Positions 6,213 through 38,684 of a stretch of DNA of 43,016 nt are shown here, one piece after another. This DNA is from Nemertoderma westbladi (taxonomy: Eukaryota; Animalia; Xenacoelomorpha): assembly GCA_032718475.1 (NCBI GenBank), contig JAUCBJ010000957.1, forward strand, positions 1-43,016. The letters run 5' to 3'. The notes under the pieces are model-generated. The model did not search any database. It saw only the letters and a program-made list of their open reading frames with translations, and was not told the DNA's origin. The first letter of the stretch is position 1. Each line of letters opens with the position of its first letter. The translations under genes were made by a program, and so were the position numbers.

Positions 6213-6310
6213 CGGGTCAGCTTAGCCAAGTGGATACTTCCCTTGAAAATGGTTTCAAAATCAAACTGCACTTGATCATCACGGGTTCGAGTCCCGTTGT
6301 TTCCACTGGC
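6213..6310 (+). mobile_element. tRNA-like Pol III promoter head (SINE-like remnant)
   Basis: A-box-like tagccaagtgg (~6222) and B-box ggttcgagtccc (~6283). No full cloverleaf seen. Confidence 0.45.
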
Positions 6311-7069
6311 GCCTTCTGACCTTTTTGATCTTGTAATATTCCAAACATTAACATATCCTTTGTTTCAACTTCGTTCAAGTTGTGTAAAATTTTGTTATAA
6401 ACAATGTCCCACCCTATCCCGCACTCTCATAGCCCATTGCACCCTCCGATGCACACCAATACTTACAACAACCCTGCCCTACCCAAACTTAAAATTGATA
6501 GATATTTATAAAATTGATTGATAGCACTGATTGAATCATATTTGGGATTCAATTATGGTGAGATCCTGACCTACTAACTATATTAGGTCGTGGAGAGAGT
6601 TAATTTTATGGTCAGAAGTTAGTATTTATAATTTTAATTTCGATATAATTTCTTGTATTTCGGAAGTTTGAGTTTCATAACTAATGATCCAATGTCATAT
6701 GCATGAGTTCAACAACTAATTTGTGGTATAATTTTGATTGAATGCAATCTGACATTCCTTAAAAAATAATGTTAACAGTTAATAACAGTTTACACAAAGC
6801 TAAGGTTTCACATACATATAAACATTGTTAATTAATAAAATATCATATTGCTAATTGCACTTTTAAATTATGACAAAGTAGCAGCTGTACCACAGACACA
6901 AGTATAACAGCTGATAGTTATGTGCATTAATGCATGCATTTTGTAATGGATTGGTTCTACATCTACATTCAAATTGACTTATTGTGTTTGGTTATGTAAA
7001 TAATAATGTGTGTAAAATAATACGTTACGACCATTGTACGAGTCGTACCGATGACACCTTAGATGTTAA

Positions 7070-8183: not shown

Positions 8184-8537
8184 TCACTCGATGGTCTCCT
8201 GTTTGTCCTTCACTGCAACCTTAAATCGTTCTTCCAGTAAAGAAATCTCTGATAATAAGTCAGTGAGAGCATTCTTAAAGGCTTCCTGAGGCGTAGACTC
8301 TGTGGTTGTTTGTACACGAAGAACGAACTTGTGCTCCAGTGGATGGGGTACCTTGTAACCAGCGAATATGACTCCGGGGTCTTTCAGCAGTTGACACGTG
8401 ATCATATTTCCCAGCGTGTGGTCCTCCTTCATCACAGAGAAGATTGCAGCGTTAGGAACTTTCGTATCTTTTTGTATCGTAACTTTCTTTTCTCCACCGA
8501 ACAATAGAAATGACTCAAAAGGGGGAGGTGCATTCAT
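8184..8537 (-). CDS. POLR2J: DNA-directed RNA polymerase II subunit RPB11, single-exon CDS, 117 aa
   Basis: [13 protein letters not shown]...KEDHTLGN...[13 protein letters not shown] is the RPB11 signature. The true ATG is at 8537; the ORF-track start at 8612 is non-ATG. Confidence 0.97.
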
Positions 8538-9385
8538 ATTTATAACATAGACGGCACTGCAGTACACAGTGCCGTACAGTACTGGCAATCTAGCCTCTGT
8601 AGGGTAGGCCAATAGGCCTATGCTATATCAGCACCGGTATGTCCCGATATCTGTATATCCCTGTATCCAGATACTGAGATATCATAAAAACCAATAACTG
8701 CAGAACTCTAGACTGCTGGACTGTCAGACTGTAGTACTGCAGTACTGTAGACTGGTAGAGCGGTATAACAACTGTATATTAGAACACAGACACATAAGCA
8801 GCAAACCCTCGCATGCATCATCAACCAACAGAGCAATCAAAACGCAATAATTTTTATTGTCCGTTTAAATCCTTTTTTGTCCTTTTTTTTTTATTTTTTA
8901 TGTCCTCCAAAAGTCTAATGTTAGGTTCCATGCTACCGGTTTCTCTACTGCTGTTCTCTCAGGCTATCAGTACCGGTATTAGTATATATAGCACTATTTT
9001 GCTGTATTGTATGTACAGATGTAGGTATAAAGCAGGTATTTCTGTATTTTAGTACCGGTACAGGCACCGGTACTGCTATAGGCCTACTATGTAGCCTACC
9101 TTTTAAATACGGTAATGGTAGGCCAACCGGTTGTGCTAATAAATTTTAAATAATTGCAGGCCAAACTGGATTGCAGGATTGTGGAAAATGTGGATATACC
9201 TTTCACATAATTTAGGCCTATTACTGTATTAGTTTTATAATCAATAATGGATCATGACTACTGTCTGAGTAGTGTTACGGATAGTGGCACCACTACTTCC
9301 AACAGTACAGATCAGTTCATAAACTCATCCGTACTCGAAAAAACTGAAAACTAATTTGACAGGTGGAGTTTGGTTTGTTGACAGT

Positions 9386-10340
9386 TTGGTTAGAAAATCC
9401 CGCCTCTGTAACCTGCTCCTTTCCCCGAATTGGTAAAGTGACCGTTTATTGTTTTGGTTAGAAAGGCCCGCCTCTGTAACCTGCCCCTTTCCCTCAATTA
9501 TTTAAATGATCGTTTATTGTTTTGGTTAGATAATCCCGCCTCTGTAACCTGCTCCTTTCCCTCCAATTGGTAATGTTATCGTTTATTGTTTTGGTTAGAA
9601 AATCCCGCCTCTGTAACCTGCTCCTTTCTCTCAATTGGTAATGTTATCGTTTATTGTTTTGGTTAGAAAATCCCGTCTCTGTAACCTGCTCCTTTCTCTC
9701 AATTAGTTAAATGATCGTTTATTGTTTTGGTTAGAAAATCCCGCCTCTGTAACCTGCCCCTTTCCCTCAATTAGTTAAATGATCGTTTATTGTTTTGGTT
9801 ATAAAATCCCGCCTCTGTAACCTGCTCCTTTCCCTGATTTGGTAAAGTGACTGTTTATTGTTTTAGTTAGAAAATCCGGCCTTAACCTGCTTCTTTCCCT
9901 CAATTAGTTAAGTGATCGTTTATTGTTTTGGTTAGAAAATCCCGCCTCTGTAACCTGCTCCTTTCCCTCAATTGGTAATGTTATCGTTTATTGTTTTGGT
10001 TAGAAAATCCCGCCTCTGTAACCTGCTCCTCTCTCTCAATTGGTAATGTTATCGTTTATTGTTTTGGTTAGAAAATCCCGTCTCTGTAACCGGCTCCTTT
10101 CCCTCAATTAGTTAAATGATCGTTTATTGTTTTGGTTAGAAAATCCCGCATCTGTAACCTGCTCCTTTCCCTCAATAAGTTAAGTGATCGTTCATTGTTT
10201 TGGTTAGAAAATCCCGCCTCTGTAACCTGCTCCTTTCCCTCAATTAGTTAAGTGATCGTTTATTGTTTGGTTAGAAAATCCCGTCTCTGTAACCTGCTCC
10301 TTTCCCTGATTTGGTAAAGTGACTGTTTATTGTGACTGTT
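9386..10340 (+). repeat. 69-bp tandem satellite, about 14 copies
   Basis: Unit tttggttagaaaatcccgcctctgtaacctgctcctttccctcaatt(g/a)gt...tcgtttattgt with three recurring sub-variants. Confidence 0.95.
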
Positions 10341-11505: not shown

Positions 11506-11871
11506 TACTACTACTACTACTAAGATCGACATGCTGCATTGCAGTTGTATTTTTAAGAATGCTATGCCGCCTTATCGACAAAATTGCGTCGCCACAACTC
11601 CATGACACCCATGACATTTGCTACTGTAGATCATCCGCATCTTCAAGGCCAGTGTCCTTTAAGATGCGTCTCAAGAAAGTCATGGGATGTCCACCATGCT
11701 TATTCACTCCATGAGGCTGTCAAAGCACAAATTATGCACTGGCTGGTCCTCTCGGCGAAAGTACTGTCCTGCAAAGCGGAGGTGGCTTTGTTCTAGTGTC
11801 AAGCTAGGGGAAGCCAATGCAACACTTCCAATGCTATATAGTGTCTGATTGGAGATGTGTTCATTATACTT
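11506..11871 (-). mobile_element. RTE-like LINE 3' end with (TAG)n tail; left part of the copy interrupted by the 800-bp array
   Basis: Reverse complement of the 16690-17036 and 18125-18470 sequence. (cta)n tail at ~11506-11522. Continues at 16363. Confidence 0.85.
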
Positions 11872-11974
11872 AATTGAATGTATTAATTGAATGTACCGAC
11901 ATACTGACTAACAGGGGGTTGTGATGTATATATTATCTTTAAGGTAAACACTAGAGACTTACACCCTTTAACTA

Positions 11975-12012
<38 letters not shown>

Positions 12013-12348
12013 GAATCAGGACATTAAGCCCAAAATACCTTCCAGCCCCTAAGGCCATCAAGGAACACAAAACAAAACAAACAAAAAACACAAACAAAAG
12101 TATAGATTCAGGACATTAAGCCCAAAATACCTTCCAGACCCTAAGGCCATCAAGGAACACAAAACAAAACAAACAAAAAAACACAAACAAAATATATTAT
12201 ACCATGCTCCACATACAAGTATGTATCGCAACCCTAACCCTAAACCTAACCGCCATACACTAAATGATACCGGTATTAAACTGCACAAAAGCTAAGCCTA
12301 TATTATATAAGAAAATATATGACATTTTTGTCGCCGTGAAAGAGGTAG

Positions 12349-12443
12349 GACTAAAACAAAAATAATTAATTTGTTAAAAATATGGTTGCGTTTCGGCGTC
12401 TAGGACCAGTACGCGCTAATCCTCGACACCTCATCAGCTGGAC
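12349..12443 (-). ncRNA. Hammerhead ribozyme-like motif, copy 1
   Basis: Minus strand reads guccag CUGAUGA ggugucgaggauuag-cgcgua-cugguccuagacgcc GAAAC. The catalytic boxes flank a long stem II (gguguc/gacgcc, agga/uccu, uuag/cugg). Candidate GUC at 12351-12349. Stems I and III are weak. Confidence 0.55.
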
Positions 12444-12778
12444 AGGGAATTAGCCAAGCCTAACTATATTGCACCATTGACCTAAATTAATCGCACCATC
12501 AACTCAGTTACCACTCAGCCCAAACAGACTTCAGACCTCAGAACATTGGAACCCTATAGGCCTACGGTAAGTAAACATGTTACCAATGGAAAACTGGTAG
12601 TTTGCTAGAGCAAACACACAGCACAAAAATTATATAAGATTTAACAACATGCAGTGATGCCGGAGTTCTGCTCTATTCATATGTGATAATTGAATGTACC
12701 GACATACTGACTAACAGGGGGTTGTGATGTATATATTATCTTTAAGGTAAACACTAGAGACTTACACCCTTTAACTAC

Positions 12779-12809
<31 letters not shown>

Positions 12810-13145
12810 GAATCAGGACATTAAGCCCAAAATACCTTCCAGCCCCTAAGGCCATCAAGGAACACAAAACAAAACAAACAAAAAACACAAACAAAAGTAT
12901 AGATTCAGGACATTAAGCCCAAAATACCTTCCAGACCCTAAGGCCATCAAGGAACACAAAACAAAACAAACAAAAAAACACAAACAAAATATATTATACC
13001 ATGCTCCACATACAAGTATGTATCGCAACCCTAACCCTAAACCTAACCGCCATACACTAAATGATACCGGTATTAAACTGCACAAAAGCTAAGCCTATAT
13101 TATATAAGAAAATATATGACATTTTTGTCGCCGTGAAAGAGGTAG

Positions 13146-13240
13146 GACTAAAACAAAAATAATTAATTTGTTAAAAATATGGTTGCGTTTCGGCGTCTAG
13201 GACCAGTACGCGCTAATCCTCGACACCTCATCAGCTGGAC
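13146..13240 (-). ncRNA. Hammerhead ribozyme-like motif, copy 2
   Basis: Identical core gtttcggcgtc...gacacctcatcag at 13187-13234. Confidence 0.55.
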
Positions 13241-13574
13241 AGGGAATTAGCCAAGCCTAACTATATTGCACCATTGACCTAAATTAATCGCACCATCAAC
13301 TCAGTTACCACTCAGCCCAAACAGACTTCAGACCTCAGAACATTGGAACCCTATAGGCCTACGGTAAGTAAACATGTTACCAATGGAAAACTGGTAGTTT
13401 GCTAGAGCAAACATACAGCACAAAAATTATATAAGATTTAACAACATGCAGTGATGCCGGAGTTCTGCTCTATTCATATGTGATAATTGAATGTACCGAC
13501 ATACTGACTAACAGGGGGTTGTGATGTATATATTATCTTTAAGGTAAACACTAGAGACTTACACCCTTTAACTA

Positions 13575-13611
<37 letters not shown>

Positions 13612-13947
13612 GAATCAGGACATTAAGCCCAAAATACCTTCCAGCCCCTAAGGCCATCAAGGAACACAAAACAAAACAAACAAAAAACACAAACAAAAGT
13701 ATAGATTCAGGACATTAAGCCCAAAATACCTTCCAGACCCTAAGGCCATCAAGGAACACAAAACAAAACAAACAAAAAAACACAAACAAAATATATTATA
13801 CCATGCTCCACATACAAGTATGTATCGCAACCCTAACCCTAAACCTAACCGCCATACACTAAATGATACCGGTATTAAACTGCACAAAAGCTAAGCCTAT
13901 ATTATATAAGAAAATATATGACATTTTTGTCGCCGTGAAAGAGGTAG

Positions 13948-14042
13948 GACTAAAACAAAAATAATTAATTTGTTAAAAATATGGTTGCGTTTCGGCGTCT
14001 AGGACCAGTACGCGCTAATCCTCGACACCTCATCAGCTGGAC
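13948..14042 (-). ncRNA. Hammerhead ribozyme-like motif, copy 3
   Basis: Identical core at 13989-14036. Confidence 0.55.
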
Positions 14043-14747
14043 AGGGAATTAGCCAAGCCTAACTATATTGCACCATTGACCTAAATTAATCGCACCATCA
14101 ACTCAGTTACCACTCAGCCCAAACAGACTTCAGACCTCAGAACATTGGAACCCTATAGGCCTACGGTAAGTAAACATGTTACCAATGGAAAACTGGTAGT
14201 TTGCTAGAGCAAACACACAGCACAAAAATTATATAAGATTTAACAACATGCAGTGATGCCGGAGTTCTGCTCTATTCATATGTGATAATTGAATGTACCG
14301 ACATACTGACTAACAGGGGGTTGTGATGTATATATTATCTTTAAGGTAAACACTAGAGACTTACACCCTTTAACTACTGAACTACAAAAAAAAAAAAAAA
14401 AAAAAAATACAGAATCAGGACATTAAGCCCAAAATACCTTCCAGCCCCTAAGGCCATCAAGGAACACAAAACAAAACAAACAAAAAACACAAACAAAAGT
14501 ATAGATTCAGGACATTAAGCCCAAAATACCTTCCAGACCCTAAGGCCATCAAGGAACACAAAACAAAACAAACAAAAAAACACAAACAAAATATATTATA
14601 CCATGCTCCACATACAAGTATGTATCGCAACCCTAACCCTAAACCTAACCGCCATACACTAAATGATACCGGTATTAAACTGCACAAAAGCTAAGCCTAT
14701 ATTATATAAGAAAATATATGACATTTTTGTCGCCGTGAAAGAGGTAG

Positions 14748-14842
14748 GACTAAAACAAAAATAATTAATTTGTTAAAAATATGGTTGCGTTTCGGCGTCT
14801 AGGACCAGTACGCGCTAATCCTCGACACCTCATCAGCTGGAC
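14748..14842 (-). ncRNA. Hammerhead ribozyme-like motif, copy 4
   Basis: Identical core at 14789-14836. Confidence 0.55.
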
Positions 14843-15538
14843 AGGGAATTAGCCAAGCCTAACTATATTGCACCATTGACCTAAATTAATCGCACCATCA
14901 ACTCAGTTACCACTCAGCCCAAACAGACTTCAGACCTCAGAACATTGGAACCCTATAGGCCTACGGTAAGTAAACATGTTACCAATGGAAAACTGGTAGT
15001 TTGCTAGAGCAAACACACAGCACAAAAATTATATAAGATTTAACAACATGCAGTGATGCCGGAGTTCTGCTCTATTCATATGTGATAATTGAATGTACCG
15101 ACATACTGACTAACAGGGGGTTGTGATGTATATATTATCTTTAAGGTAAACACTAGAGACTTACACCCTTTAACTACAAAAAAAAAAAAAAAAAAAAATA
15201 CAGAATCAGGACATTAAGCCCAAAATACCTTCCAGCCCCTAAGGCCATCAAGGAACACAAAACAAAACAAACAAAAAACACAAACAAAAGTATAGATTCA
15301 GGACATTAAGCCCAAAATACCTTCCAGACCCTAAGGCCATCAAGGAACACAAAACAAAACAAACAAAAAAACACAAACAAAATATATTATACCATGCTCC
15401 ACATACAAGTATGTATCGCAACCCTAACCCTAAACCTAACCACCATACACTAAATGATACCGGTATTAAACTGCACAAAAGCTAAGCCTATATTATATAA
15501 GAAAATATATGACATTTTTGTCGCCGTGAAAGAGGTAG

Positions 15539-15633
15539 GACTAAAACAAAAATAATTAATTTGTTAAAAATATGGTTGCGTTTCGGCGTCTAGGACCAGT
15601 ACGCGCTAATCCTCGACACCTCATCAGCTGGAC
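15539..15633 (-). ncRNA. Hammerhead ribozyme-like motif, copy 5
   Basis: Identical core at 15580-15627. Confidence 0.55.
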
Positions 15634-15968
15634 AGGGAATTAGCCAAGCCTAACTATATTGCACCATTGACCTAAATTAATCGCACCATCAACTCAGTTA
15701 CCACTCAGCCCAAACAGACTTCAGACCTCAGAACATTGGAACCCTATAGGCCTACGGTAAGTAAACATGTTACCAATGGAAAACTGGTAGTTTGCTAGAG
15801 CAAACACACAGCACAAAAATTATATAAGATTTAACAACATGCAGTGATGCCGGAGTTCTGCTCTATTCATATGTGATAATTGAATGTACCGACATACTGA
15901 CTAACAGGGGGTTGTGATGTATATATTATCTTTAAGGTAAACACTAGAGACTTACACCCTTTAACTAC

Positions 15969-15999
<31 letters not shown>

Positions 16000-16362
16000 G
16001 AATCAGGACATTAAGCCCAAAATACCTTCCAGCCCCTAAGGCCATCAAGGAACACAAAACAAAACAAACAAAAAACACAAACAAAAGTATAGATTCAGGA
16101 CATTAAGCCCAAAATACCTTCCAGACCCTAAGGCCATCAAGGAACACAAAACAAAACAAACAAAAAAACACAAACAAAATATATTATACCATGCTCCACA
16201 TACAAGTATGTATCGCAACCCTAACCCTAAACCTAACCGCCATACACTAAATGATACCGGTATTAAACTGCACAAAAGCTAAGCCTATATTATATAAGAA
16301 AATATATGACATTTTTGTCGCCGTGAAAGAGCTAGTAAGTCTCTATAGTGTTTACCTTAAAG

Positions 16363-16544
16363 GTTCATTATACTTGACATAGTGAACCCGGCGTAGCATT
16401 CTTGTGAATGTGCCATCCAGAGATTTGGTGTCCTCGGTATTTAGAGCTCAGCATGCACTCCCATAGAGGAGTACTGACAAGTGCTGGCCTACTGCTGCTT
16501 TTAAGTTTCCGACGTATTCAATGTAATTTCCAGATCATTGACAG
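16363..16544 (-). mobile_element. Continuation of the minus-strand RTE-like LINE interrupted at 11871
   Basis: tacttgacatagtgaacccggcgtagcattcttgtgaatgtgccatccagagatttgg is the reverse complement of the adjacent RTE coding sequence (KSLDGTFTRMLRRVH). Confidence 0.85.
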
Positions 16545-17036
16545 ATCATAAGGTCCGATTATTTAGAGCAGCAGTAGTTCCAGTACTCCTCTACGGGAGT
16601 CCATGCTGGGCTCTAACTGCCGAGGACACCAAATCTCTGGATGGCACATTCACAAGAATGCTACGCCGGGTTCATTGTGTCAAGTACAATGCACACATCT
16701 CCAACCAGACACTATATAACATTGGAGGTGTCTCATTGGTTCCCCCAAGCTTGACACTAGAACAAAATCGCCTCCGTTTTGCAGGACATTGCTTTCGCCG
16801 TGAGGACCAGCCAGTGCATAATCTTGTACTTTGGCAGCCTCATGGAGTGAATAAGCATGGTGGACAGCCCATGACTTTCTTGAGACGCATCTTAAAGGAC
16901 ACTGGCCTTAAAGATGCGGATGATCTAGCAAATGTCATGGGTGATAGGTAGTTGTAGCGGTGCAATTTTGTTGACAAGCCGGCACAGCATTCTTAAAAAT
17001 GCAGCTGCAATGCAGCATGCCGATCCTAGTAGTAGT
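16545..17036 (+). mobile_element. 5'-truncated RTE-like LINE with (TAG)n tail, flanked by 130-bp direct repeats
   Basis: ORF KVRLFRAAVVPVLLYGSPCWALT...RLRFAGHCFRR (RTE thumb/C-terminus). Tail tagtagtagt. 16415-16544 is repeated at 17037-17166. Confidence 0.88.
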
Positions 17037-17459
17037 ATCCAGAGATTTGGTGTCCTCGGTATTTAGAGCTCAGCATCCACTCCCATAGAGGAGTACTGAC
17101 AAGTGCTAGCCTACTGCTGCTTTTAAGTTTCCGACGTATTCAATGTAATTTCCAGATCATTGACAGCCTCATATACAGTAGTTATATATGTTAGTTACAG
17201 TTATCATATGAAGTTGCATTTCTATTAGCAATGTCATTAAAAAAAAGACAAATTATTCTAAAATTAACTCATTACCAGTTTAGCGAAATTCACTAACTAC
17301 AGTATGCCTATGTACTGTACAGTATTCTGTCCGAGCGGTGGACTTTTTCACTTGTTGGTAAGTTGTAAGAGTTTCTAACATGTCAACGAGTGGAAAAAAT
17401 CAACACTCGAGTTCAGTAGGCCTATATCTGAATTTCATCGACAACATTTGTGTCTACAG

Positions 17460-18470
17460 TTGATCGTGACACAGAACCATTTGAAGTGTTATGGGGCGTC
17501 CTCCAGGCTAGGGAGACACACTTGCACCATTCTTGTTCATAATTGTGGTTGACTATGTTCTACGCATGTCATTAGATCATCATAATGATGATGGGGTGAT
17601 GATAACTCTACCTACTGGCTCCAGAAGTCGAGGAAATCCTGCCAAGTACCTAACTGATCTAGACTTTGCTGATGACTTAGGAGTACTCTCAGAATCACTA
17701 GAGGGAGCCCAACGGCTCCTCAGCTCATTAGAACATGCTGCTTCTAGTGTTGGTCTTTTTATTAACTCCAGAAAGACCAAAATGTTGGCAGTTAACTTTA
17801 AAGTCGTCAGCAAGTCTCTGATCGGATGAGCATAAGCTCAAAGGATGGTATGCTTGAGCATGTGGACAACTTCTGTTACCTTGGATCATGGATCCGGAAG
17901 TCAGGTGAGGACCTTCGAATACGCATGGGCAGCCTTGAATAGGCTTTCCAGGATTTGGAAGTCACCGATAATTAATCGGAAACTTAAGGTCCGATTATTT
18001 AGAGCAGCAGTAGTTCCAGTACTCCTCTATGGGAATCCATGCTGCGCTCTAACTGCTGAGGACACCAAATCTCTGGATGGCACATTCACAAGAATGCTAC
18101 GCCGGGTCCATTGTGCCAAGTAAAATGCACACATCTCCAACCAGACACTATATATCATTGGAGGTGTCTCATTGGTTCCCCCAAGCTTGACACTAGAACA
18201 AAATCGCCTCCGCTTTGCAGGACATTGCTTTCGCCGTGAGGACCAGGCAGTGCATAATCTTGTACTTTGGCAGCCTCATGGAGTGAATAAGCATGGTGGA
18301 CAGCCCATGACTTTCTTGAGACGCATCTTAAATGACACTGGCCTTGAAGATACGGATGATCTAGCAAATGTCATAGGTGATAGGGAGTTGTGGCGGTGCA
18401 ATTTTGTCGATAAGCCGGCACAGCACTCTTAAAAATGCAGCTACAATGCAGCATGCCGATCCTAGTAGTA
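17460..18470 (+). mobile_element. 5'-truncated, frameshifted RTE-like LINE (RT motifs 4-7 to 3' tail)
   Basis: GVLQ..GDTLAPFLFIIVVDYVLR, LTDLDFADDL and GLFINSRKTK, with the same C-terminus as the 16545 copy. Ends gatcctagtagtag. Confidence 0.9.
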
Positions 18471-18777
18471 GCAATAATTAGTCTACACATGTTGTGAATT
18501 ACAATTAACATAAAAATACAGTAAAATAAGGAAGCGAATTTTCATTCGTTGTAAAGGGCAAAAATTTACTTATGAACCCAGAAAACGAAAATAACCAAAA
18601 GGTAATAAAACATTGTTGCGCGGGTGTAGCCAACATGTATTTTACACATTTTTGTGTGGTATTGTTAAATAATTTACAATAGTTTTTGAGTTATTAAAAA
18701 AAATCAAGTCTCCCCTAACGTCAAGTGGAGACTTGCCCTACACTCACCCTACATACATAAATATACTACCGTATAAT

Positions 18778-20813: not shown

Positions 20814-22577
20814 TTAAGATTTATGAACAGAATTGATATGGGTGTTTAGGCAGTCTTGCCGACTGAATTCTTTATTACAATAACCGCATTTATGTTTGAT
20901 ATCTTTATGTATAGAATCGATATGTTTTTTTAGGTCGTCTTTGTAACTGAATTCTTTATTACAATAACCGCACTTATGTTTGATATCTTTATGTATAGAG
21001 TCGACATGTCGGTTTAGTGCGGCTTTTCTAGCAAATAATTTTCCACAATCGGAGCAGCTATACTTGATGATACCTTTGTGGGCAAAGTTAATGTGGGCGT
21101 TTAGACTACTTTGCCGGCTTAATTCTTTATTACAATAACCGCACTTAAGTTTGATATCTTTATGTATAGAGTCGACATGTCGGTTTAGTTCGGCCTTTGA
21201 AGCAAATGATTTTACACAATCGGAGCAGCTATACTTGATGATACCTTTGTGGGCAAAGTTAACGTGGGTATTTAGACTCCTTTTCTGGCTGAATTCTTTA
21301 TTACAATAATCGCACTTATGTTTGATATCTTTATGTACAGAGTCAACATGTGGTTTTATGTCGTGTTTGTGTTTGAATTCTTTATTACAATAACCGCATT
21401 TATGTTTTATATCTTTGTGAACGGATTCGACATGTTGTTTTAGTACGGCTTTAGAAGCAAATGATTTTCCACAATCAAAACAGTTGTACTTGATATCTTT
21501 ATGAAAGTAGTTGACATGGGTGGTTAGATTTCCTTGGTGGCTGAATTCTTTATTACAATAACCGCACTTATGTTTGATATCTTTATGTATAGAGTCGACA
21601 TGTCGGTTTAGTGCGGCTTTTCTAGCAAATGAGTTTCCACAATCGGAGCAGCTATACTTGATGATACCTTTGTGGGCAAAGTTAATGTGGGCGTTTAGAC
21701 TACTTTGCCGGCTTAATTCTTTATTACAATAACCGCACTTAAGTTTGATATCTTTATGTATAGAGTCGACATGTCGGTTTAGTTCGGCCTTTGAAGCAAA
21801 TGATTTTACACAATCGGAGCAGCTATACTTGATGATACCTTTGTGGACAAAGTTAACGTGGGTGTTTAGATTCCTTTGCTGACAGAATTCTCTATTACAA
21901 TAACCGCACTTATATTTAATATCTTTATGTATAGAGTCGACATGTCGTTTTATGTCGTGTATGTAACTGAATTCTTTATGACAGTAACCGCACTTATGTT
22001 TGATATCTTTATGGGTATCGTCAACATGCTTCTTTACATAATTTTTTATTTTAAACACTTTCTCACAATAATCGCATTTATACTTATTCTTGACGTCTTT
22101 ATGAACGGATTCTATATGTCTCTCTAAAATTCCTTTGTTATCAAATAATTCATTACAATGCAAACAGGAACTGGTGTCTGAAGAAGATACCAACTCCCCA
22201 ACAGTTTCATTAGAACTACCGGACTCTGTTGTTGCACAACTAATTGTTGGTTCTGTACCTTCAGTTCCAATGGGCCTATCATACGAACAGTCTGGACTAT
22301 TGTTTTCCCGTTTTTCAACAATAAAATAATCTCCAGATGGTTCATAAGAAATATCTTCGTCATCTAGTACAGGGACAACATTTACTCTACCGAACAAATT
22401 GTTGTGATCTTCGATGGGAGATGATCCGTAAACGCAGTTCTCTTGTTTAACATCACGAGAATAGGGGGTGGAGTCTGTTGGTTCTTTCTTTATAATTATA
22501 AAGTCTGTTGGTTCTTTCTTTATAACTATATCGGCGCCAGATGATTTCTCTTTCAATAAATTAGTATGTTGATCCAT
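20814..22577 (-). CDS. Tandem C2H2 zinc-finger protein (16 C-x2-C...H-x4-H fingers), single-exon CDS
   Basis: 589-codon open frame with first ATG at 22577 (MDQHTN). KDIK/KGIIK linkers. Acidic N-terminus with IKKEP twice and VKQE. Confidence 0.9.
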   Translation of the reverse strand: MDQHTNLLKEKSSGADIVIKKEPTDFIIIKKEPTDSTPYSRDVKQENCVYGSSPIEDHNNLFGRVNVVPVLDDEDISYEPSGDYFIVEKRENNSPDCSYDRPIGTEGTEPTISCATTESGSSNETVGELVSSSDTSSCLHCNELFDNKGILERHIESVHKDVKNKYKCDYCEKVFKIKNYVKKHVDDTHKDIKHKCGYCHKEFSYIHDIKRHVDSIHKDIKYKCGYCNREFCQQRNLNTHVNFVHKGIIKYSCSDCVKSFASKAELNRHVDSIHKDIKLKCGYCNKELSRQSSLNAHINFAHKGIIKYSCSDCGNSFARKAALNRHVDSIHKDIKHKCGYCNKEFSHQGNLTTHVNYFHKDIKYNCFDCGKSFASKAVLKQHVESVHKDIKHKCGYCNKEFKHKHDIKPHVDSVHKDIKHKCDYCNKEFSQKRSLNTHVNFAHKGIIKYSCSDCVKSFASKAELNRHVDSIHKDIKLKCGYCNKELSRQSSLNAHINFAHKGIIKYSCSDCGKLFARKAALNRHVDSIHKDIKHKCGYCNKEFSYKDDLKKHIDSIHKDIKHKCGYCNKEFSRQDCLNTHINSVHKS

Positions 22578-23499
22578 TATCAAATCTAATCTTCAATAAA
22601 TATTAATCAATAAATTAAATACAGGTGGCAGTAGTTCTAGGTAAGTCAAGCTCTTCACTAATATAAATTTCATGCGATGTAAATATAATAAATAGATTAT
22701 ATAAGGACGTTCAAAAGTTGCATGTCGCTGTAACGGAATGGGGCAGGTTATAGTGACAGTGACAAGCAAATGGAACCAAAAGAAACCTATCACTACTACA
22801 GTACCAGCAGTACTTACAGTACCAGTACGATTGGAGAGTAAAAAGGTTTAGGTGATTTATTAAATATGTTATTGGCGATTCATTTAAAGACACAGAGTGT
22901 GCTACGTACGATCGCGGTTGTATGGAACTACGACAGTTCCTATGTAGCAAACTTTGCCCGCGTTTGAACTTAAGTAATTAATTACCGGTACCTAATACTT
23001 AAACAAAACTCAAGTTCGTGTAGCTGATTATGAAACTGTAACCTGTAAAGCTAGTCGCTACAGACATTGTCAATAGGTTGCTATGGTATTTTCAAAAAAC
23101 TAAATATTTAACTTCATCATATCAAAAATAGTAATCTTCCATAAATTTTAACTAATCATATCTACAGATATACTATAAGAGCTGTTGCTTTGCTATGGCA
23201 GTTTCCTCCGTTGCATGTTTAAGAGTTTAAGACCCTCTAAAAAATCAGCTCAACCGTTTGGTGAAGTCTACCCAATTTGTTTATAATGTCCGATATCAGT
23301 ACTAAACATCTATATGGGGCTGGGGTAGCTCAGTCGTATAAAAACACTTTACGGGGTCATAGGCTGGAGCCTGTATTACATATAGAAACACCTAGATTTA
23401 TAAACATTGAGGCAGAAAACAACAGTTGGACATTTTTTTACCGACGAAAATACGAAATTAAACATCATGATTATTGAAATATTTCCGTTGCTATGTTAA

Positions 23500-24825: not shown

Positions 24826-25090
24826 GGCTTTCGCCGTGCCCGTGAGGACCAGCCACAGCCAGTGCTTAAGCGTGTGGTTTGCAGCTTTGGCAGCCTCATG
24901 GAGTTAATAAGCATTTAAGCATGGTGGACAGCCCATGACAGAATTTATTGACTTTCTTGGGAGGGTGGGACGCATCGTAAAGGACACATGAAGAATGCTG
25001 TGCCGGCTTGTCGACAAAATTGCGCCGTCATAACTCCCTATCAGCTATCACCCACACCCATGACATTTGCTAAGATCATCCGCATCTTCA
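24826..25090. mobile_element. Rearranged RTE-like 3' fragments (+ piece followed by - piece)
   Basis: 24826-24987 matches cagcctcatggag...aaggacac. 24992-25090 is the reverse complement of the next downstream segment. Confidence 0.75.
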
Positions 25091-25463: not shown

Positions 25464-25730
25464 CCAGTGGCGGCGTTAGGGCCCCCCGATCGGGGGGGGG
25501 GGGGGGGGGGGGGGGGGCACGCCGGGGCCCCGACCCGCCGGGTCCAGAGCACAGCGGGGCCCCGAGCACGCCGGGGACCCAAGCACAACAGGGCCCCACA
25601 TAGCCAATACTTCAATATGAGCCATGGCAACAGAGCCAGACCAAAGGGGCTGGGTGAGTTAGGTATACTCAGGGGAGCACCCAGGGGGGGTGGGGGGGGG
25701 GGGGGGGTTGGTAGGGGGCTCCAGATATCC
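25464..25730 (+). repeat. GC-rich, poly-G-containing DNA transposon end (hAT-like cagtggcgg start)
   Basis: Abrupt GC rise at cagtggcggcgttagggcccc. G runs at 25492-25517 and 25684-25708. Confidence 0.4.
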
Positions 25731-26261: not shown

Positions 26262-27403
26262 TTACTCCCCAGTTATCTCAGCCTAGGCTGAGAACACTCC
26301 CCAGTCTTCTCAGCCTAGGCTAAGAACACTCCCCTTAGGCTGAGATAATTGTTTAGTTGTTTCTGACTTATACAATATACATTACATACTCTATACATAG
26401 GATCTAAGTTCGTTTTACCATATACCGGTACATAATATACAGGCAGCAAAATAAAGCATAATACTTTTTAGCAGTAATTTTTTATGTCCGTTCATTTGAC
26501 TTTTTTGTCCACAATTTTTTATGAATTTTGCATAATACTTTTGTTGTCCGCAGAATGACTTTTTATGTATGCATTTCTTCAATTAAGAGAAAGGAGCATG
26601 TTACATAGACGGTCTTTTCTAACCAAAACAATAAACGATAAAATTACCAATTGACAGATTGAAGGAAAGGGGCAGGTTACATAGACGGTCTTTTCTAAGC
26701 AAAACAATAAGCAATAAAATTATCAATTGAGGGAAAGGGGCAGGTTACAGAGGCGAGCTTTTGTAACCAAAACAATAAGCAGTTACAATACAAAATGAGA
26801 AAAAATAGCACGTAACAAAAACGGGCTTTTCTAACAGTTAGAACAAGCTAATTAGGTTGGTTGTATTGTGGTGGTTAGATTAGGTGGGTTGTATTGTGGT
26901 GGTTAGATTATGTTGGTTGTATTGTGGAGGTTAGATTAGGTTGGTTGTATTGTGGTGGTTAGATTAGGTTGGTTGTATTGTGGTGGTTAGATTAGGTTGG
27001 TTGTATTGTGGTGGTTAGATTAGGTTGGTTGTATTGTGGTGGTTAGATTAGGTGGGTTGTATTGTGGTGGTTAGATTATGTTGGTTGTATTGTGGAGGTT
27101 AGATTAGGTTGGTTGTATTGTGGTGGTTAGATTAGGTGGGTTGTATTGTGGTGGTTAGATTAGGCGGGTTGTATTGTGGTGGTTAGATTAGGTTGGAACA
27201 GAAATTAGTTCTAACAGTATTTAATATAATTATTTAACATTGAAAAAAGCAGCATCTGGATTTAACTTAAAGATATAATTATTTGTAGGGTTTTTCGCAA
27301 TTTGGGGAGTCATCTCAGCCTAAGGTGAGTGTGAGGTGAGTAAAACTGGGGAGTGTTAGTCGGCCTAGACTGAGACGACTGAGGAGTGTTCTCAGCCTAG
27401 GCT
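26262..27403 (-). mobile_element. Composite non-autonomous element: repetitive inverted ends, 69-bp satellite units and a 28-bp minisatellite
   Basis: actccccag..tctcagcctaggctgaga blocks at 26262-26346 are inverted at 27303-27403. 26470-26580 is the reverse complement of 10585-10715. 26580-26835 contains inverted 69-bp units. Confidence 0.7.
26851..27196 (+). repeat. 28-bp minisatellite, about 12 copies
   Basis: Unit attaggttggttgtattgtggtggttag. Confidence 0.95.
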
Positions 27404-28873: not shown

Positions 28874-30366
28874 GGATCCTTTTAATTTCACACATATCTA
28901 AAATGTTTAATTTCAGGACATTTAATGTTTAGACATGTTGGAGACTGATGAACTAACTAGATGGGTTTCTTAAAGTTTTTAAAAAATCTCACCTTTTGGT
29001 CCTGTAATAATGCCAACAAATTTTCAACACGACACAGCGTTAAATCCGACAAAGTTATTAGCATGTCAAATCGTAACGAAGACTACGTCGCGGCGTCAAC
29101 AACTATTTGCCATTATTGTCCCACCCCTAACATTGTCAGTTCACTAAGGCTCCGGCAACGTCGTGGCTCACCCCACAAAGCGCGAGCTGTGTAATCTTAG
29201 CACACAGTACAGCCGGCCGCTGTATTATTTACCTGTACTGTACGTACAGGTCTATAAACATGGATAAATAGGCCAGGTACAGTACCGTGCTATTTATCCA
29301 TAGTGCAGTAGTGCTGCGTTGCACTGACTAACTGCTTCCTGAATACGGGCAAAGGCAAATACGTCCCACATACGGTAGGCTACGGGAACTATTTCAAATA
29401 CGTACACATACAGACATACGGCAAAAAGACAAACCCCATTTTGGGGACGCTGTAAAAAAAAATTGGCGAGGGTTTTGGAACATTTGAAAACAGTTTTATG
29501 AAGCACAATATGTGTGCTACAGCAGTACAGACTCAAAACAAAATAAATGCATTTCTAAATACTTTCCTTTTTCTCCAAAAGGTTTACTTATCTGCTTATG
29601 CTGGGAATGGCTGCAATGTAATACTGTAATATATAATGCAGCTGCAATGCAGCATACCGATCCTAGCACCTAGCAGTCTGGTACAGTTAGACAGTACTGC
29701 AGTAGTACTGTCTGACTGTAGTAGTAGTATCACTTCGCTCTTCTCCGTTCCATTCTTCCTTCATCCTTGATGCTGTGATGTGCCTGCACGGCTACCGACC
29801 AGTGCGGGAATCTGTTGCCGACACGTCCCTCGTGTTGTCAAATGCTGACTCAGATCCCGGGCTCTGGGTGTAGACAGGTAGAGTAGAACTGTAAATAAGT
29901 AGGCCTAAACATTTATTGGTAAATTACTGAATTATGTTCTTGTCTTCAGTTGGTGGTGGATATTGCAGTATTGTTTTGTGCAAAGTTGTAGGCCTATAAG
30001 GTAATGTTTTTAGATTTGAAAATAGAGGAGACTTGAAAGTAAAAAAAAGTATCACTTCGTTCTGTTCTACTGTATATAATGTCTGAATGTATCTATGTAC
30101 TGTACTGTATGTACTGTAATAGGGGCCTACTTACAGACTTCAGTACTTTAATATATACAGAAATAAATAAATAAGCACAATTAGGATAGGCTACATAATT
30201 TAATTAATTCTATAATTGGATACCAAGATACAGAAAGACTAACACTGGCCAACGGATTCAATCTAACTGTCTAATACATAATACAGTAATCAGGTACGGG
30301 TAATACAGTAATTGGTAATACAGTAATAGGCCTCTACTGCAATTCCAACCGGTCCGGGGATTCACG

Positions 30367-36380: not shown

Positions 36381-36560
36381 TACTACTAGAATCGGCATGC
36401 TGCATTGCAGCTGCATTTTTAAGAATGCTGTGCCGGCTTGTCGACAAAATTACGCCGCCAAAACTCCCTATCACCCATGACATTTGCTAGATCATCCGCA
36501 TCTTCAAGGCCAGTGTCCTTTAAGATGCGTCTCAAGAAATTCATGGGCTGTCCACCATGC
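36381..36560 (-). mobile_element. RTE-like LINE 3' end
   Basis: (tac)n tail followed by the reverse complement of the RTE 3' UTR and C-terminus. Confidence 0.85.
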
Positions 36561-37436: not shown

Positions 37437-38684
37437 TTACTCCCCTAGAACGACGGTACGAATGATCCTCTCCGTCACGGAATACGGATCGCAATTGGAG
37501 GAAGGCCTTCGATCCTCCAGATATCCGCACTTATCGGCGGCGACGTGACGGGGTATCCGAACGCTGGCGCCCCGGTTGGCCACCCCCGACGAGTAGTCGT
37601 CGATGTGTGCGGTCTCGTGGTCCCCGGTAAGACGCCGCTTGTTGTCCTCGCCCTGTTTCGGGTCGTACGCGGCGATGTGCTCCTCGTGGCGCGACGAGAG
37701 TCGCTCGCAAGCCGCTTCGATCGCAGAAATCCCATCTGGTTCACGCATCGCTAGAGTCGAGAAGTTGCAATGCGCACCGGAGCCGTTCCACGGCCCCGGT
37801 ACCGGCTTAGGATCAAGAGAAACAACGATTCCGAAATCCTCGGCGACTCTATGGAGAAGAAACCTCGAGACCCACAAATGGTCAGAAACGTCTATCCCCT
37901 CGCACGGACCTATCTGGTACTCCCATTGACTTGGCATTACCTCTGCGTTGGTCCCCGCTATCTTGATCCCCGCGTACAGACACGCTTTGTAATGGGCCTC
38001 GGCTATCTCCCTTCCGTAAACCTTGTCCGCACCCACCCCACAGTAGTACGGGCCTTGGGGGGCGAGATACCCCATCTTGGGCCATCCGTACGGGTGCCCA
38101 TCGCGGTCCAACACCGTGTACTCTTGCTCGATCCCAAACCACGGCTTTTCTTCCAACACTCGCTCCATTACAGCGACACAACTAGCGCGTTTGTTGCTCT
38201 CCGCTTTGACCCAGTTGTATTTGTAGACGTCGCACAGACAGAGTTTGTTGTTCCCGCGACGGAAAGGGTCTCGGAACAAAGCTACCGGTTTTAGAAACAT
38301 GTCGCTGTTAGACCCTTCGGCCTGGTAGGTCGATGAACCATCGTAGTTCCATACAGGTAATTCCGTGGGCGATTTTGGTACAAAGTCGAAGGTTTTTGTT
38401 TTGCATCGAAGACCTTCGCCGGTTCCGTCTATCCATATGTACATGACCTGGACCAATTCCTCCAAGGGTTCCAGGGTTAAGTAGTGCTGCAGCACCGACT
38501 TCTTACCCATATCGTCAAGTGCGCCTCCGATGGAACACATTGTTCTAAGACTGATTACTGGTACCGGTACAGGTTGCACCCAAGTTATATTGTTACGACA
38601 GACAACTGAATTAACACAAAATGTATTACTCTGATGGAAAACTGAACGTGGAACTGATTTTATAATTTGGCGCAAACACGTCAT
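37437..38684 (-). CDS. GLUL: Glutamine synthetase type II with N-terminal extension (putative mitochondrial targeting peptide), single-exon CDS
   Basis: [78 protein letters not shown] and GYLEDRRP are all GSII motifs. Confidence 0.97.

What the first reader, a model, noticed from the sequence alone, without database searches (positions are those of the whole stretch)
12349..12443. Atypical hammerhead core whose candidate GUC cleavage site coincides with the end of the insertion
Seen: the minus strand has intact catalytic boxes CUGAUGA and GAAAC around a ~14-bp stem II. About 40 nt downstream, after an aacaaa/uuuguu hairpin, is a GUC (12351-12349). The last unit matches the consensus up to 16335 (one mismatch at 16332), which is the equivalent of 12348, the nucleotide immediately 3' of that GUC. 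Inference: the 5' end of the copied RNA may be a self-cleavage product. Caveat: only about 2 bp of stem I and 2 bp of stem III can be drawn next to the core, so it is either a non-canonical or dimeric hammerhead or a decayed one.
Basis: partly seen in the sequence, partly recalled or inferred. Interest (0 to 1): 0.8.

Follow-up and report, generated by a model that had tools for sequence, protein, structure and literature searches.

The report
Rewired hammerhead in a Penelope-type repeat

Summary
Each of the five complete units has CUGAUGA, a 14-pair hairpin and GAAAC on the minus strand. A GUC lies 40 nt further on, and the array ends at 16335, the base just 3' of the equivalent GUC (+/-1 nt). 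The type-I reading is weak. Rfam gives no significant hammerhead hit. The 2+2 pairing at that GUC occurs 17 times per unit by chance. In the family's majority copies the first stem I pair is broken, and no recurrent copy ends were seen there.

The array (11872-16363) is a single insertion with a 12-bp target duplication, 5.6 head-to-tail units and a 28-nt inverted piece. This pattern matches Penelope-like-element (PLE) insertions, with the minus strand as RNA sense.

The core fits a non-circularly permuted type-CSG hammerhead better. A substrate strand sits inside the hairpin loop, with 4-bp stems I and III, a 6-bp stem II and a 9/10-pair bridging helix. Spacings are like the two published CSG ribozymes. 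The predicted cut is at 12410|12409. It is unproven: no covariation data, no RNA data, and a competing hairpin that is more stable. Confidence is about 0.45.

The parts
11872..16363 (-). The whole insertion: a non-coding tandem retroelement array with the minus strand as RNA sense.
   Evidence: It is flanked by identical 12-bp duplications. Two paralogous copies of the host repeat are uninterrupted at this site.
11860..11871 (.). Left copy of the target-site duplication, TTCATTATACTT.
   Evidence: The target is AT-rich and contains ATT.
16364..16375 (.). Right copy of the target-site duplication, TTCATTATACTT.
11884..16335 (-). 5.6 head-to-tail units. Four spacings between unit starts measure 791-802 bp (fifth complete unit 797 bp). 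Plus-strand unit starts are at 12349, 13146, 13948, 14748 and 15539.
   Evidence: Only 3 substitution columns and 14 variable columns out of 802 differ among the five complete units. The poly(A) run varies from 21 to 33 across the six copies.
16336..16363 (+). A 28-nt inverted piece at the sense-5' end. It is the reverse complement of the unit stretch equivalent to 11937-11961 plus a 2-nt insert.
   Evidence: It reads as a short second cDNA primed from the other target strand. It starts 54 nt from the start of the direct array.
11870..11895 (.). A 13-nt sequence repeated twice (TTAATTGAATGTA) at the sense-3' junction, where the direct cDNA would have started.
   Evidence: Other copies of the family also break within 3-6 nt of the equivalent place: loose ends at 15871 (4 contigs, X1) and 15873 (3 contigs, X4), and two joints to 15874.
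12431..12437 (-). Block C of the hammerhead core, CUGAUGA. Equivalent copies start at 13228, 14030, 14830 and 15621.
   Evidence: In other family copies only N7 varies: 12433 A>G in 45-94% of depth.
12390..12394 (-). Block G, GAAA, plus C15.2.
   Evidence: No variant reaches 3%.
12395..12430 (-). In the CSG reading only its basal 6 bp (12425-12430 with 12395-12400) form stem II.
   Evidence: One search gives -19.1 kcal/mol. Family changes: 12397 C>T turns a U.G pair into U-A in the basal stem, and 12402 A>T breaks a pair in the upper part.
12406..12414 (-). Block S of the proposed type-CSG hammerhead: III-b GCGU (12414-12411), A17 (12410) and I-a CUGG (12409-12406). The predicted cut is between 12410 and 12409. 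Equivalent A17 positions are 13207, 14009, 14809 and 15600.
   Evidence: This is the only site in the window with at least 4+4 contiguous pairs to both core arms (5 of 5 units, 0 elsewhere). No variant reaches 3%.
12438..12441 (-). I-b, CCAG, which pairs with CUGG at 12409-12406. After a U.U mismatch, one further G-C pair is possible (12443 with 12404).
12388..12391 (-). III-a, ACGC, which pairs with GCGU at 12414-12411.
12445..12454 (-). 5' strand of the bridging helix P0, GCUAAUUCCC.
   Evidence: It pairs at 9 of 10 positions with 12424-12415. The window background for such a match is 0.0092. A variant contig in each of X1 and X3 reads UAAUCCUU here, which pairs 8 of 8.
12415..12424 (-). 3' strand of P0, GAGGAUUAGC, directly after II-a.
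   Evidence: P0 is part of the predicted fold of the growing transcript at 60 and 65 nt.
12401..12405 (-). A 5-nt linker, UCCUA, between I-a and II-b.
   Evidence: The length matches the two published CSG ribozymes. The linker is the most variable part in the family: 12402 A>T, one X4 contig reading UCUCA, and a 3% lineage with a 1-nt insertion.
12349..12351 (-). Equivalent copies are at 13146-13148, 13948-13950, 14748-14750 and 15539-15541.
   Evidence: Only 2+2 pairs flank it. The neighbouring position 12348 is variable in the family.
12230..12251 (+). A telomere-repeat-like motif of CCCTAA type on the plus strand. It is present in each of the six unit copies.
   Evidence: Its role is unknown.

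Best explanation
The 11872-16363 array is one insertion of a non-coding ~800-nt retroelement, likely made by a Penelope-like-element reverse transcriptase/endonuclease.

Shown by the sequence and my calls:
- a 12-bp target duplication in an AT-rich site, with the empty site seen in paralogues;
- 5.6 near-identical head-to-tail units;
- a 28-nt inverted piece at one end, whose start lies 54 nt from the start of the direct array;
- an intact CUGAUGA...GAAA core with a G10.1-C11.1 pair.

Inferred, insertion. The enzyme nicked both target strands. It started cDNA synthesis at two neighbouring internal sites of a multimeric or circular minus-sense RNA. It copied 5.6 units on one strand and 28 nt on the other, and the two cDNAs were then joined.

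Inferred, ribozyme. The block order is C, then S, then G.
- Stem I is CCAG with CUGG.
- Stem II is the basal 6 bp of the hairpin.
- Stem III is GCGU with ACGC, and A17 is at 12410.
- A 9/10-pair helix (P0) joins the far ends of stems I and II.
- P0 would form first during transcription and hold the hairpin open. Cleavage would fall between 12410 and 12409. The RNA could later refold into the more stable 14-pair hairpin.

For: Insertion type:
- The TSD and empty site are seen.
- The head-to-tail units differ at only 3 substitution columns of 802.
- The inverted piece and the two start points 54 nt apart are seen.
- These features match published PLE hallmarks. Craig et al. 2021 (PMC8557442; passages read) describe partial tandems, an inverted 5'-truncated copy at the 5' end, a 'tail', and non-autonomous multicopy head-to-tail insertions. 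Frangieh et al. 2024 (PMC11167929; parts 1-2 of 4 read) describe cleavage and extension of both strands, two adjacent internal RT start sites, and AT-rich ATT targets.

Sense strand:
- Laid depth steps up 6.8- to 14.4-fold at the array-start equivalent (15870) in 4 of 4 runs.
- Depth rises broadly from the unit's sense-5' part to the hammerhead and beyond.
- Contigs break recurrently at 15871-15874.

Type-CSG fit:
- The S block is the only site in the window with at least 4+4 pairs to both arms (5 of 5 units, 0 elsewhere). Shuffles give 3.6e-5 such sites per position, which is about 1e-3 for the 28 possible places inside the 36-nt insert.
- P0 pairs at 9 of 10 positions against a background of 0.0092.
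- The layout after CUGAUGA is II-a 6, P0 strand 8-10, spacer 0-2, III-b 4, H17, I-a 4, linker 5, II-b 6, GAAA. The published alignment with its structure line (supplement of PMC10085705) has 5, 8, 2, 5, C17, 6, 5, 5.
- All blocks abut the core with no insertion.
- The three majority family changes inside the motif fall on N7, the linker, and a U.G-to-U-A change in stem II. No variant reaches 3% in the S block, I-b, III-a or P0.
- A variant P0 strand gives 8 of 8 pairs.
- Folds of the growing transcript contain P0 at 60 and 65 nt.
- Craig et al. note Naiad PLEs with 'HHR_half_core', where the two core halves lie 35-50 nt apart. Here they are 36 nt apart.
Against: - There is no covariation test. 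The five copies in the window are identical, and read tables give frequencies without linkage.
- No RNA data exist, so cleavage is untested.
- The competing 14-pair hairpin is much more stable. It scores -20.5 kcal/mol, against -8.1 for the 6-bp stem II plus only -1.7 for stem I and -2.8 for stem III in isolation.
- Stems I and III are 4 bp, shorter than the published 6 and 5.
- The conserved stretch is not more conserved than its surroundings. Majority-variant positions number 3 of 67 inside the motif and 12 of 194 outside (my count).
- A 3% lineage has an insertion and a deletion that partly favour the long hairpin.
- No copy ends were seen at 12409/12410, and the array end itself is not explained by this cut.
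- The CSG fit was found post hoc, after a lead from earlier scan notes.
- No PLE reverse transcriptase gene is in the window. Pfam on 8 of the 16 ORFs of at least 120 aa found none. No genome is held.
Confidence: 0.45

Rival explanations
1. Decayed or non-cleaving hammerhead relic. The core and hairpin descend from a PLE or retrozyme hammerhead but no longer cut. The element spreads without cleavage, and both the array end at the GUC and the internal 4+4 complement are coincidences.
For: - Rfam gives no significant hit.
- The stable hairpin should dominate the fold.
- Neither candidate cut site shows recurrent copy ends.
- Frangieh et al. 2024 found that hammerhead mutants did not affect insertion in vitro, and found no reads ending at the cut site.
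- Craig et al. 2021 report PLEs that thrive without canonical hammerheads and carry bare 'HHR_core' motifs.
Against: - All 11 invariant core letters are intact, and in the family only N7 varies.
- The joint chance of the S block (~1e-3) and P0 (~0.009) is low.
Confidence: 0.3
2. An atypical type-I hammerhead, possibly dimeric or protein-assisted, uses the long hairpin as stem II. It cuts after GUC 12351-12349, and the cDNA ran off that 5' end.
For: - The array end coincides with the base 3' of the GUC to +/-1 nt.
- PLE hammerheads with a 2-bp helix I have been described in D. virilis (PMC4209133, passages read).
- A protein-assisted PLE hammerhead is known.
- One other head-to-head junction lies 3 nt away, at the equivalent of 12351, in 4 of 4 runs with one contig each.
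Against: - Stem I and stem III have 2 bp each, with a 37-nt loop between GAAAC and GUC.
- The 2+2 pairing is at chance level: 17 such sites per unit.
- Position 12348 (1.1) is A in 38-75% of depth.
- The loop-3 hairpin loses pairs in the majority copies.
- No loose end at 12348/12349 appears among the 24 rows shown of 175.
- The junction at the equivalent of 12351 retains the GUC, so it cannot come from RNA cut there.
Confidence: 0.12
3. The unit boundary marks a transcription start in each unit rather than a cleavage site. The cDNA stopped at the capped 5' end of a multimeric read-through RNA.
For: - PLE pseudo-LTRs are reported to carry the transcription start site.
- An AT-rich stretch lies 10-24 nt upstream of the boundary.
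Against: - The AT-rich stretch is too close for a usual TATA spacing (established knowledge).
- No recurrent ends were seen at the boundary.
- No RNA data exist.
Confidence: 0.08
4. Pure chance resemblance: a hairpin that happens to be flanked by CUGAUGA and GAAA.
For: A core with a stem of at least 5 bp is expected 0.053 times per shuffled window, so a very large scan will meet many such cases.
Against: - The stem has 14 pairs.
- The G10.1-C11.1 pair is present.
- The motif lies on the sense strand of a PLE-type element.
- Variation within the core is limited to N7.
- The S block and P0 add further fit.
Confidence: 0.05

Closest known systems
Type-CSG non-circularly permuted hammerhead ribozymes (CSG-1 and CSG-2; Eckert, Friedrich, Weinberg and Weinberg 2023, PMC10085705)
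   Same: - The block order is CUGAnGA, then cleavage strand, then GAAA.
- All three stems abut the core without insertions.
- An extra helix joins stems I and II. Its 3' strand follows II-a directly.
- A 5-nt linker lies between I-a and II-b.
- The overall size is about 55-67 nt.
   Different: - The published examples are two similar sequences from soil metagenome DNA, and both were shown to cleave. This one is in a eukaryotic, animal-like repeat with very many copies and is untested.
- Stems I and III are 4 bp here, against 6 and 5.
- The cleavage triplet is GUA, not GUC.
- A 3-nt spacer lies between P0 and I-b.
- The linkers here can pair with each other to extend stem II into a more stable 14-pair hairpin.
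Animal non-LTR retrozymes (Cervera and de la Pena 2020, PMC7229834; Li, Clavereau and Pollet 2026, bioRxiv 10.64898/2026.07.22.740005)
   Same: - The units are non-coding and arranged head to tail.
- The unit length falls within the reported 51-972 bp range.
- The GC content is low and the copy number high.
- The TSD is longer than 4 bp.
- A hammerhead core is present in every unit.
- A link to PLEs is proposed.
   Different: - Described retrozymes carry canonical or dimer-type type-I hammerheads with a 6-bp helix I. This one fails the type-I fold and the Rfam models.
- Circular RNA has not been shown here.
Penelope-like element insertions and their hammerheads (Cervera and de la Pena 2014, PMC4209133; Craig et al. 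2021, PMC8557442; Frangieh et al. 2024, PMC11167929)
   Same: - Multicopy or partial tandems.
- An inverted piece at the sense-5' end.
- Two adjacent internal start points.
- An AT-rich target.
- A hammerhead motif on the sense strand.
- Atypical motifs are known in this group: a long helix II, a 2-bp helix I in D. virilis, and 'HHR_core'/'HHR_half_core' motifs in Naiads.
   Different: - The window has no RT/EN gene, so this copy is non-autonomous.
- The distance from the motif to the cDNA start points is about 470-530 nt, against about 90 nt in the anole element.
- The block order is permuted.

Membership tests
Hammerhead ribozyme, type I (Rfam RF00163 and clan CL00010) | Conserved core CUGANGA ... 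GAAA with a G10.1-C11.1 pair closing stem II | tested here: met
   The core is identical in 5 of 5 units.
Hammerhead ribozyme, type I (Rfam RF00163 and clan CL00010) | Stem III directly after GAAA, leading to an NUH cleavage site, and a stem I of several base pairs formed by the flanks | tested here: not met
A type-III drawing also fails the NUH rule (by inspection).
Hammerhead ribozyme, type I (Rfam RF00163 and clan CL00010) | Score at or above the Rfam gathering threshold | tested here: not met
   There were 0 hammerhead hits at the gathering threshold and 0 at E<=10 on 1201 nt. On 141 nt, Hammerhead_1 scored 12.9 bits against 34, with E=2.3.
Type-CSG permuted hammerhead (Eckert et al. 2023) | Blocks in the order C, S, G, each uninterrupted next to the core | tested here: met
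   One search gives the block coordinates. The published definition was read.
Type-CSG permuted hammerhead (Eckert et al. 2023) | Stems I, II and III formed across the pseudoknots | tested here: met
   The stems have 4, 6 and 4 contiguous pairs. The 4+4 site is unique in the window, with a chance of about 1e-3 of falling inside the insert. This is pairing potential only, not a shown fold.
Type-CSG permuted hammerhead (Eckert et al. 2023) | [quoted passage not shown] | tested here: met
   It pairs at 9 of 10 positions, against a background of 0.0092. It is predicted in growing-transcript folds.
Type-CSG permuted hammerhead (Eckert et al. 2023) | Covariation supporting the stems | tested here: inconclusive
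   Only one-sided changes were seen: U.G to U-A in stem II, and a variant P0 strand that pairs 8 of 8. No linked sequences of other copies could be obtained.
Type-CSG permuted hammerhead (Eckert et al. 2023) | Site-specific, core-dependent self-cleavage | not testable with these tools
   This needs a bench test. No RNA run was listed.
Animal non-LTR retrozyme | Non-coding head-to-tail repeats of tens to hundreds of bp with a TSD longer than 4 bp | tested here: met
Animal non-LTR retrozyme | A type-I hammerhead in each unit, and linear or circular unit-length RNAs | tested here: inconclusive
   The core is present but the type-I fold fails. RNA could not be examined.
PLE-mediated insertion | Tandem or partial-tandem copies, an inverted piece at the sense-5' end, and two neighbouring internal cDNA start points ('tail') | tested here: met
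   Searches show these for this locus. The first start point recurs in other copies. Recurrence of the second was not shown.
PLE-mediated insertion | A PLE RT/GIY-YIG gene in the same genome that shares the element's sense-3' region | not testable with these tools
   No genome is held. No such ORF was found among the 8 of 16 ORFs scanned.

The most novel reading that the evidence does not exclude
The working ribozyme of this very abundant animal repeat family is a type-CSG hammerhead, a wiring so far published only for two soil-metagenome sequences. It folds during transcription with the help of a bridging helix, cuts at 12410|12409, and is then locked away in a long hairpin. If so, permuted hammerheads would be a normal part of Penelope-type retroelements and retrozymes, and searches with type I-III descriptors would have missed them.
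Probability: 0.4. Interest if true: 0.8.

Novelty: new variant of a known kind. Interest (0 to 1): 0.6.

Why it matters
Retrozymes and Penelope-like elements are the main homes of hammerhead ribozymes in animal genomes. Even so, whole PLE clades are reported to lack canonical hammerheads or to carry bare cores that fit no descriptor (PMC8557442). A permuted, pseudoknotted hammerhead in such an element would explain those orphan cores. It would move type-CSG ribozymes from a two-sequence metagenomic curiosity to a eukaryotic family with very many copies, and it would give a short RNA of about 90 nt that can be tested at the bench in a day.

My searches of the held library found no paper placing permuted hammerheads in eukaryotic retroelements. 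'type-CSG'/'type-SGC' returned 1 paper, the original one. 'hammerhead' + 'non-circular' + 'permut' + 'retrotransposon' from 2023 returned 4 papers, none on this.

Earlier unchecked notes of this scan make similar proposals in other genomes, so the idea is not unique to this locus.

Tried and rejected
- Rfam at the gathering threshold on the window found only a Vault RNA. Rfam at E<=10 on 12100-13300 found nothing. On 12330-12470 it found only sub-threshold rows.
- A type-III drawing came out of the MFE fold (-39.9 kcal/mol, z = -1.14, 24 of 200 shuffles fold as well). I rejected it. The would-be 16.1/16.2 letters do not fit NUH, and the majority family changes at 12463, 12469 and 12477 break its pairs.
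- I searched for a trans or distant substrate site for the core arms over the whole window. Nothing better than the internal 4+4 site turned up.
- I considered a min-HHR reading with the cleavage strand right after GAAAC. Position 16.1 would be C, and no stem I follows (inspection).
- tRNA-like SINE head: ARAGORN found 0 genes.
- No whole genome is held for this window.
- Sequencing runs: 8 were listed and 5 hold part of the stretch. No RNA holder was listed.
- Metagenome scan with a 24-nt pattern gave 0 matches.
- Earlier findings searched by place and by sequence returned nothing.
- I searched the Craig et al. supplement for four 11-nt motifs. The single match lies in coding sequence and is unrelated.
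- I did not compute energies for family-variant sequences.
- Supplements of the bioRxiv preprint could not be seen.
Full report
WHAT IS THERE

Between 11884 and 16335 the window holds 5.6 head-to-tail copies of a repeat. Spacings between successive unit starts are 791-802 bp. Among the five complete units, 14 of 802 alignment columns vary. Three of these are substitutions; the rest are length changes of a poly(A) run and one small duplication.

On the minus strand every complete unit reads CCAG-CUGAUGA, then a 36-nt hairpin, then GAAAC. The hairpin has 14 pairs in 15 positions and scores -19.1 kcal/mol. Forty nt further comes a GUC (12351-12349), preceded by a small AACAAA/UUUGUU hairpin.

The last unit follows the consensus to 16335, which is equivalent to 12348, with one mismatch at 16332. 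The G at 16335 could also belong to the adjoining piece, so the end is exact to +/-1 nt.

THE ARRAY IS ONE INSERTION

- The flanks belong to an abundant inverted-repeat element.
- Two paralogous copies of that element run uninterrupted through the site. Here TTCATTATACTT stands on both sides, at 11860-11871 and 16364-16375.
- Between the last unit and the right duplication lie 28 nt (16336-16363). They are the reverse complement of a unit stretch equivalent to 11937-11961.
- At the left junction a 13-nt sequence is repeated.
- No poly(A) stands at either end.

This is the pattern described for Penelope-like elements (PLEs):
- Craig et al. 2021 (PMC8557442; passages read) describe partial or multicopy tandems, an inverted 5'-truncated copy at the 5' end, an optional 'tail', and non-autonomous multicopy head-to-tail insertions.
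- Frangieh et al. 2024 (PMC11167929; parts 1-2 of 4 read) describe an enzyme that cuts AT-rich DNA, extends both strands, and starts reverse transcription at two adjacent internal sites of a multi-copy RNA.

Read this way, the plus DNA strand at the left flank primed a long cDNA on minus-sense RNA. The minus DNA strand at the right flank primed a 28-nt cDNA starting 54 nt away on the same kind of RNA. These steps are inferred.

WHICH STRAND IS SENSE, AND THE FAMILY

No genome is held. Four DNA runs of one coded organism hold the repeat, and no RNA holder was listed. X1 and X2 are one sample, and one run may be the window's own source.

Laying their contigs shows a very abundant, variable family.
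- Summed word depth steps up 6.8- to 14.4-fold at 15870 in 4 of 4 runs. This lies within a few nt of the equivalent of the array's start (15877).
- Contigs break there recurrently: 4 contigs in X1, 3 in X4, and two joints.
- Depth rises broadly from the part that is 5' in minus sense (6-13 thousand in X1-X3) through the hammerhead region (tens of thousands) to the next part (100-250 thousand in X1).

A fixed end plus loss towards the other end is what 5' truncation gives if the minus strand is the RNA sense. The hammerhead core is on that strand. Depth from contigs is a poor copy-number measure, so this argument is only moderate.

THE TYPE-I READING FAILS ITS TESTS

- Rfam gives no hammerhead hit at gathering score or at E<=10 on a whole unit. 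On 141 nt, Hammerhead_1 scores 12.9 bits against a gathering score of 34 (E=2.3), and it pairs other bases.
Seventeen UH sites in a unit plus flank do as well or better, and 704 do so in the window.
- In other family copies the base just 3' of the GUC (12348) is A instead of C in 38-75% of depth, which removes one of the two stem I pairs.
- Positions 12353, 12355, 12356 and 12375 also differ in most copies, and the small hairpin loses pairs.
- No loose end at 12348/12349 is among the 24 rows shown of 175.
- One head-to-head junction in 4 of 4 runs lies at the equivalent of 12351. It keeps the GUC, so it cannot stem from RNA cut there.

What remains is the coincidence of the array end with the GUC. 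Only two sites with at least 2+2 pairs lie within 100 nt 3' of GAAA, so an exact hit has a chance of about 0.0025-0.0075. After allowing for post hoc choice I put it at 0.01-0.04 (inference). That is suggestive, not convincing.

A BETTER FIT: BLOCK ORDER C-S-G

A scan for any strand that could pair with both arms of the core found one site with at least 4+4 contiguous pairs, and it lies inside the hairpin loop. GCGU-A-CUGG (12414-12406) pairs with ACGC after GAA and with CCAG before CUGAUGA. The site is present in 5 of 5 units and nowhere else in the window. Shuffled windows give 3.6e-5 such sites per position. That is about 1e-3 for the 28 places available in the insert.

This order (CUGAnGA block, then cleavage block, then GAAA block) is the non-circular 'type-CSG' permutation of Eckert et al. 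2023 (PMC10085705). I read passages of the main text, and the alignment with its structure line in the supplement.

The published ribozymes have a fourth helix that joins stems I and II. Here the 10 nt after II-a (12424-12415) pair at 9 of 10 positions with 12454-12445, just 5' of I-b. The window background for such a match is 0.0092.

Element lengths here, with the published values in brackets:
- II-a: 6 (5)
- bridging strand: 8-10 (8)
- spacer: 0-2 (2)
- III-b: 4 (5)
- one unpaired H17: A (C)
- I-a: 4, or 5 of 6 with a U.U mismatch (6)
- linker: 5 (5)
- II-b: 6 (5)

Family changes also fit this reading.
- Inside the 67-nt motif the three majority differences are N7 (12433), the linker (12402), and a U.G-to-U-A change in basal stem II (12397).
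- A further contig changes two linker letters.
- A variant 5' strand of the bridging helix pairs 8 of 8.
- No variant reaches 3% in the S block, I-b, III-a or the bridging helix.

Predicted folds of the growing transcript contain the bridging helix at 60 and 65 nt, before the hairpin's 3' strand exists.

The proposed mechanism, all of it inferred, runs as follows. The bridging helix forms first. The pseudoknotted hammerhead assembles and cuts between 12410 and 12409. The RNA can then fall into the long hairpin.

WEAKNESSES OF THE CSG READING

- The long hairpin is much more stable: -20.5 kcal/mol, against -8.1 for the 6-bp stem II plus small terms for stems I and III.
- Stems I and III are short.
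- There is no covariation and no RNA evidence.
- The motif is not more conserved than its surroundings: 3 of 67 majority-variant positions against 12 of 194 (my count).
- No copy ends were seen at 12409/12410.
- The fit was found after a lead from earlier scan notes, which are unchecked AI notes and not evidence.
- A 3% lineage carries an insertion and a deletion that partly favour the hairpin.
- Over a scan of this size, cores with short stems arise by chance: 0.053 per shuffled window. The weight therefore rests on the S block, the bridging helix and the retroelement context.

COMPARISON AND NOVELTY

The element as such is a new member of a known kind. Animal non-LTR retrozymes and PLE non-autonomous repeats have units of 51-972 bp, and a PLE origin is proposed (Li et al. 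2026 preprint, Results read; Cervera and de la Pena 2020, passages read).

PLE hammerheads are known to be atypical. They have a long helix II, a 2-bp helix I in D. virilis, and low activity (PMC4209133, passages read). One is protein-assisted and dispensable for insertion in vitro. Naiad PLEs carry cores that fit no descriptor, including half cores 35-50 nt apart; here the two halves are 36 nt apart.

A type-CSG hammerhead in a eukaryotic retroelement is not in the papers my searches reached. I therefore rate the finding as a new variant of a known kind.

My confidences are:
- CSG reading: about 0.45
- inactive relic: 0.3
- transcription start at the boundary: 0.08
- pure chance: 0.05

Noticed in passing
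window 6214-6326 (+): A Vault RNA gene: Rfam RF00006 at 62 bits against a gathering score of 34. It is the only hit in the window at gathering score, and it points to an animal-like eukaryote.
   Followed up: no
window 11512-11871 and 16364-17037; further copies at 17985-18487, 24840-25090, 36381-36560: The insertion sits in an inverted-repeat (foldback or MITE-like) element that is far more abundant than the hammerhead repeat. Summed word depth reaches 2.6 million in run X1. Many contig ends fall at 16549 (124 in X1).
   Followed up: partly
window 12230-12251 and five equivalents: Each unit carries a telomere-repeat-like motif, CCCTAA-type on the plus strand and so G-strand-type in the sense RNA. 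Endonuclease-less PLEs use reverse-complement telomeric repeats beside hammerheads. The orientation here does not fit that use.
   Followed up: partly
window 11976-12008 and five equivalents; 11974-12196 and equivalents: Each unit has an internal poly(A) run of 21-33 on the plus strand, which is poly(U) in the sense RNA, followed by a 92-bp sub-repeat present 2.3-2.4 times. The run length differs in nearly every unit, as expected from polymerase slippage.
   Followed up: no
window 11870-11895: A 13-nt sequence stands twice at the junction where cDNA synthesis would have begun. This could be stuttering or re-alignment of a telomerase-like reverse transcriptase at initiation.
   Followed up: no
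window 12398-12406 (-): A second GUC lies inside the hairpin (12406-12404). It is followed by CUAGAC, which pairs at 5 of 6 positions with GUCCAG before CUGAUGA. This is what the weak Rfam Hammerhead_1 alignment used. It overlaps stem II, so I did not pursue it.
   Followed up: partly
supplement of PMC8557442, the consensus printed just before >Naiad_Ovul: The 3' end of a published Naiad consensus shows a GAAAC block about 20 nt before a CUGAUGA block. Upstream of both is a strand that pairs with both arms (5 and 6 pairs, by eye). This is another non-type-I/II/III order in a PLE reported to lack canonical hammerheads.
   Followed up: partly
window 20814-22592 (-): A long open frame with at least 12 C2H2 zinc fingers (Pfam E = 9.6e-65). 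It coincides with the 84-bp and 171-bp tandem periodicity.
   Followed up: no
window 30319-32085 (+), 37437-38696 (-), 8184-8627 (-): Uninterrupted open frames with TM7S3/TM198-like, glutamine-synthetase-like and RNA polymerase Rpb11/L-like domains. The genes look intron-poor here.
   Followed up: no
window 9385-10333; 26851-27196; 25492-25517: Other repeats: a 68-bp tandem array (14 copies), a 28-bp tandem array (12.4 copies) and a run of 26 G.
   Followed up: no
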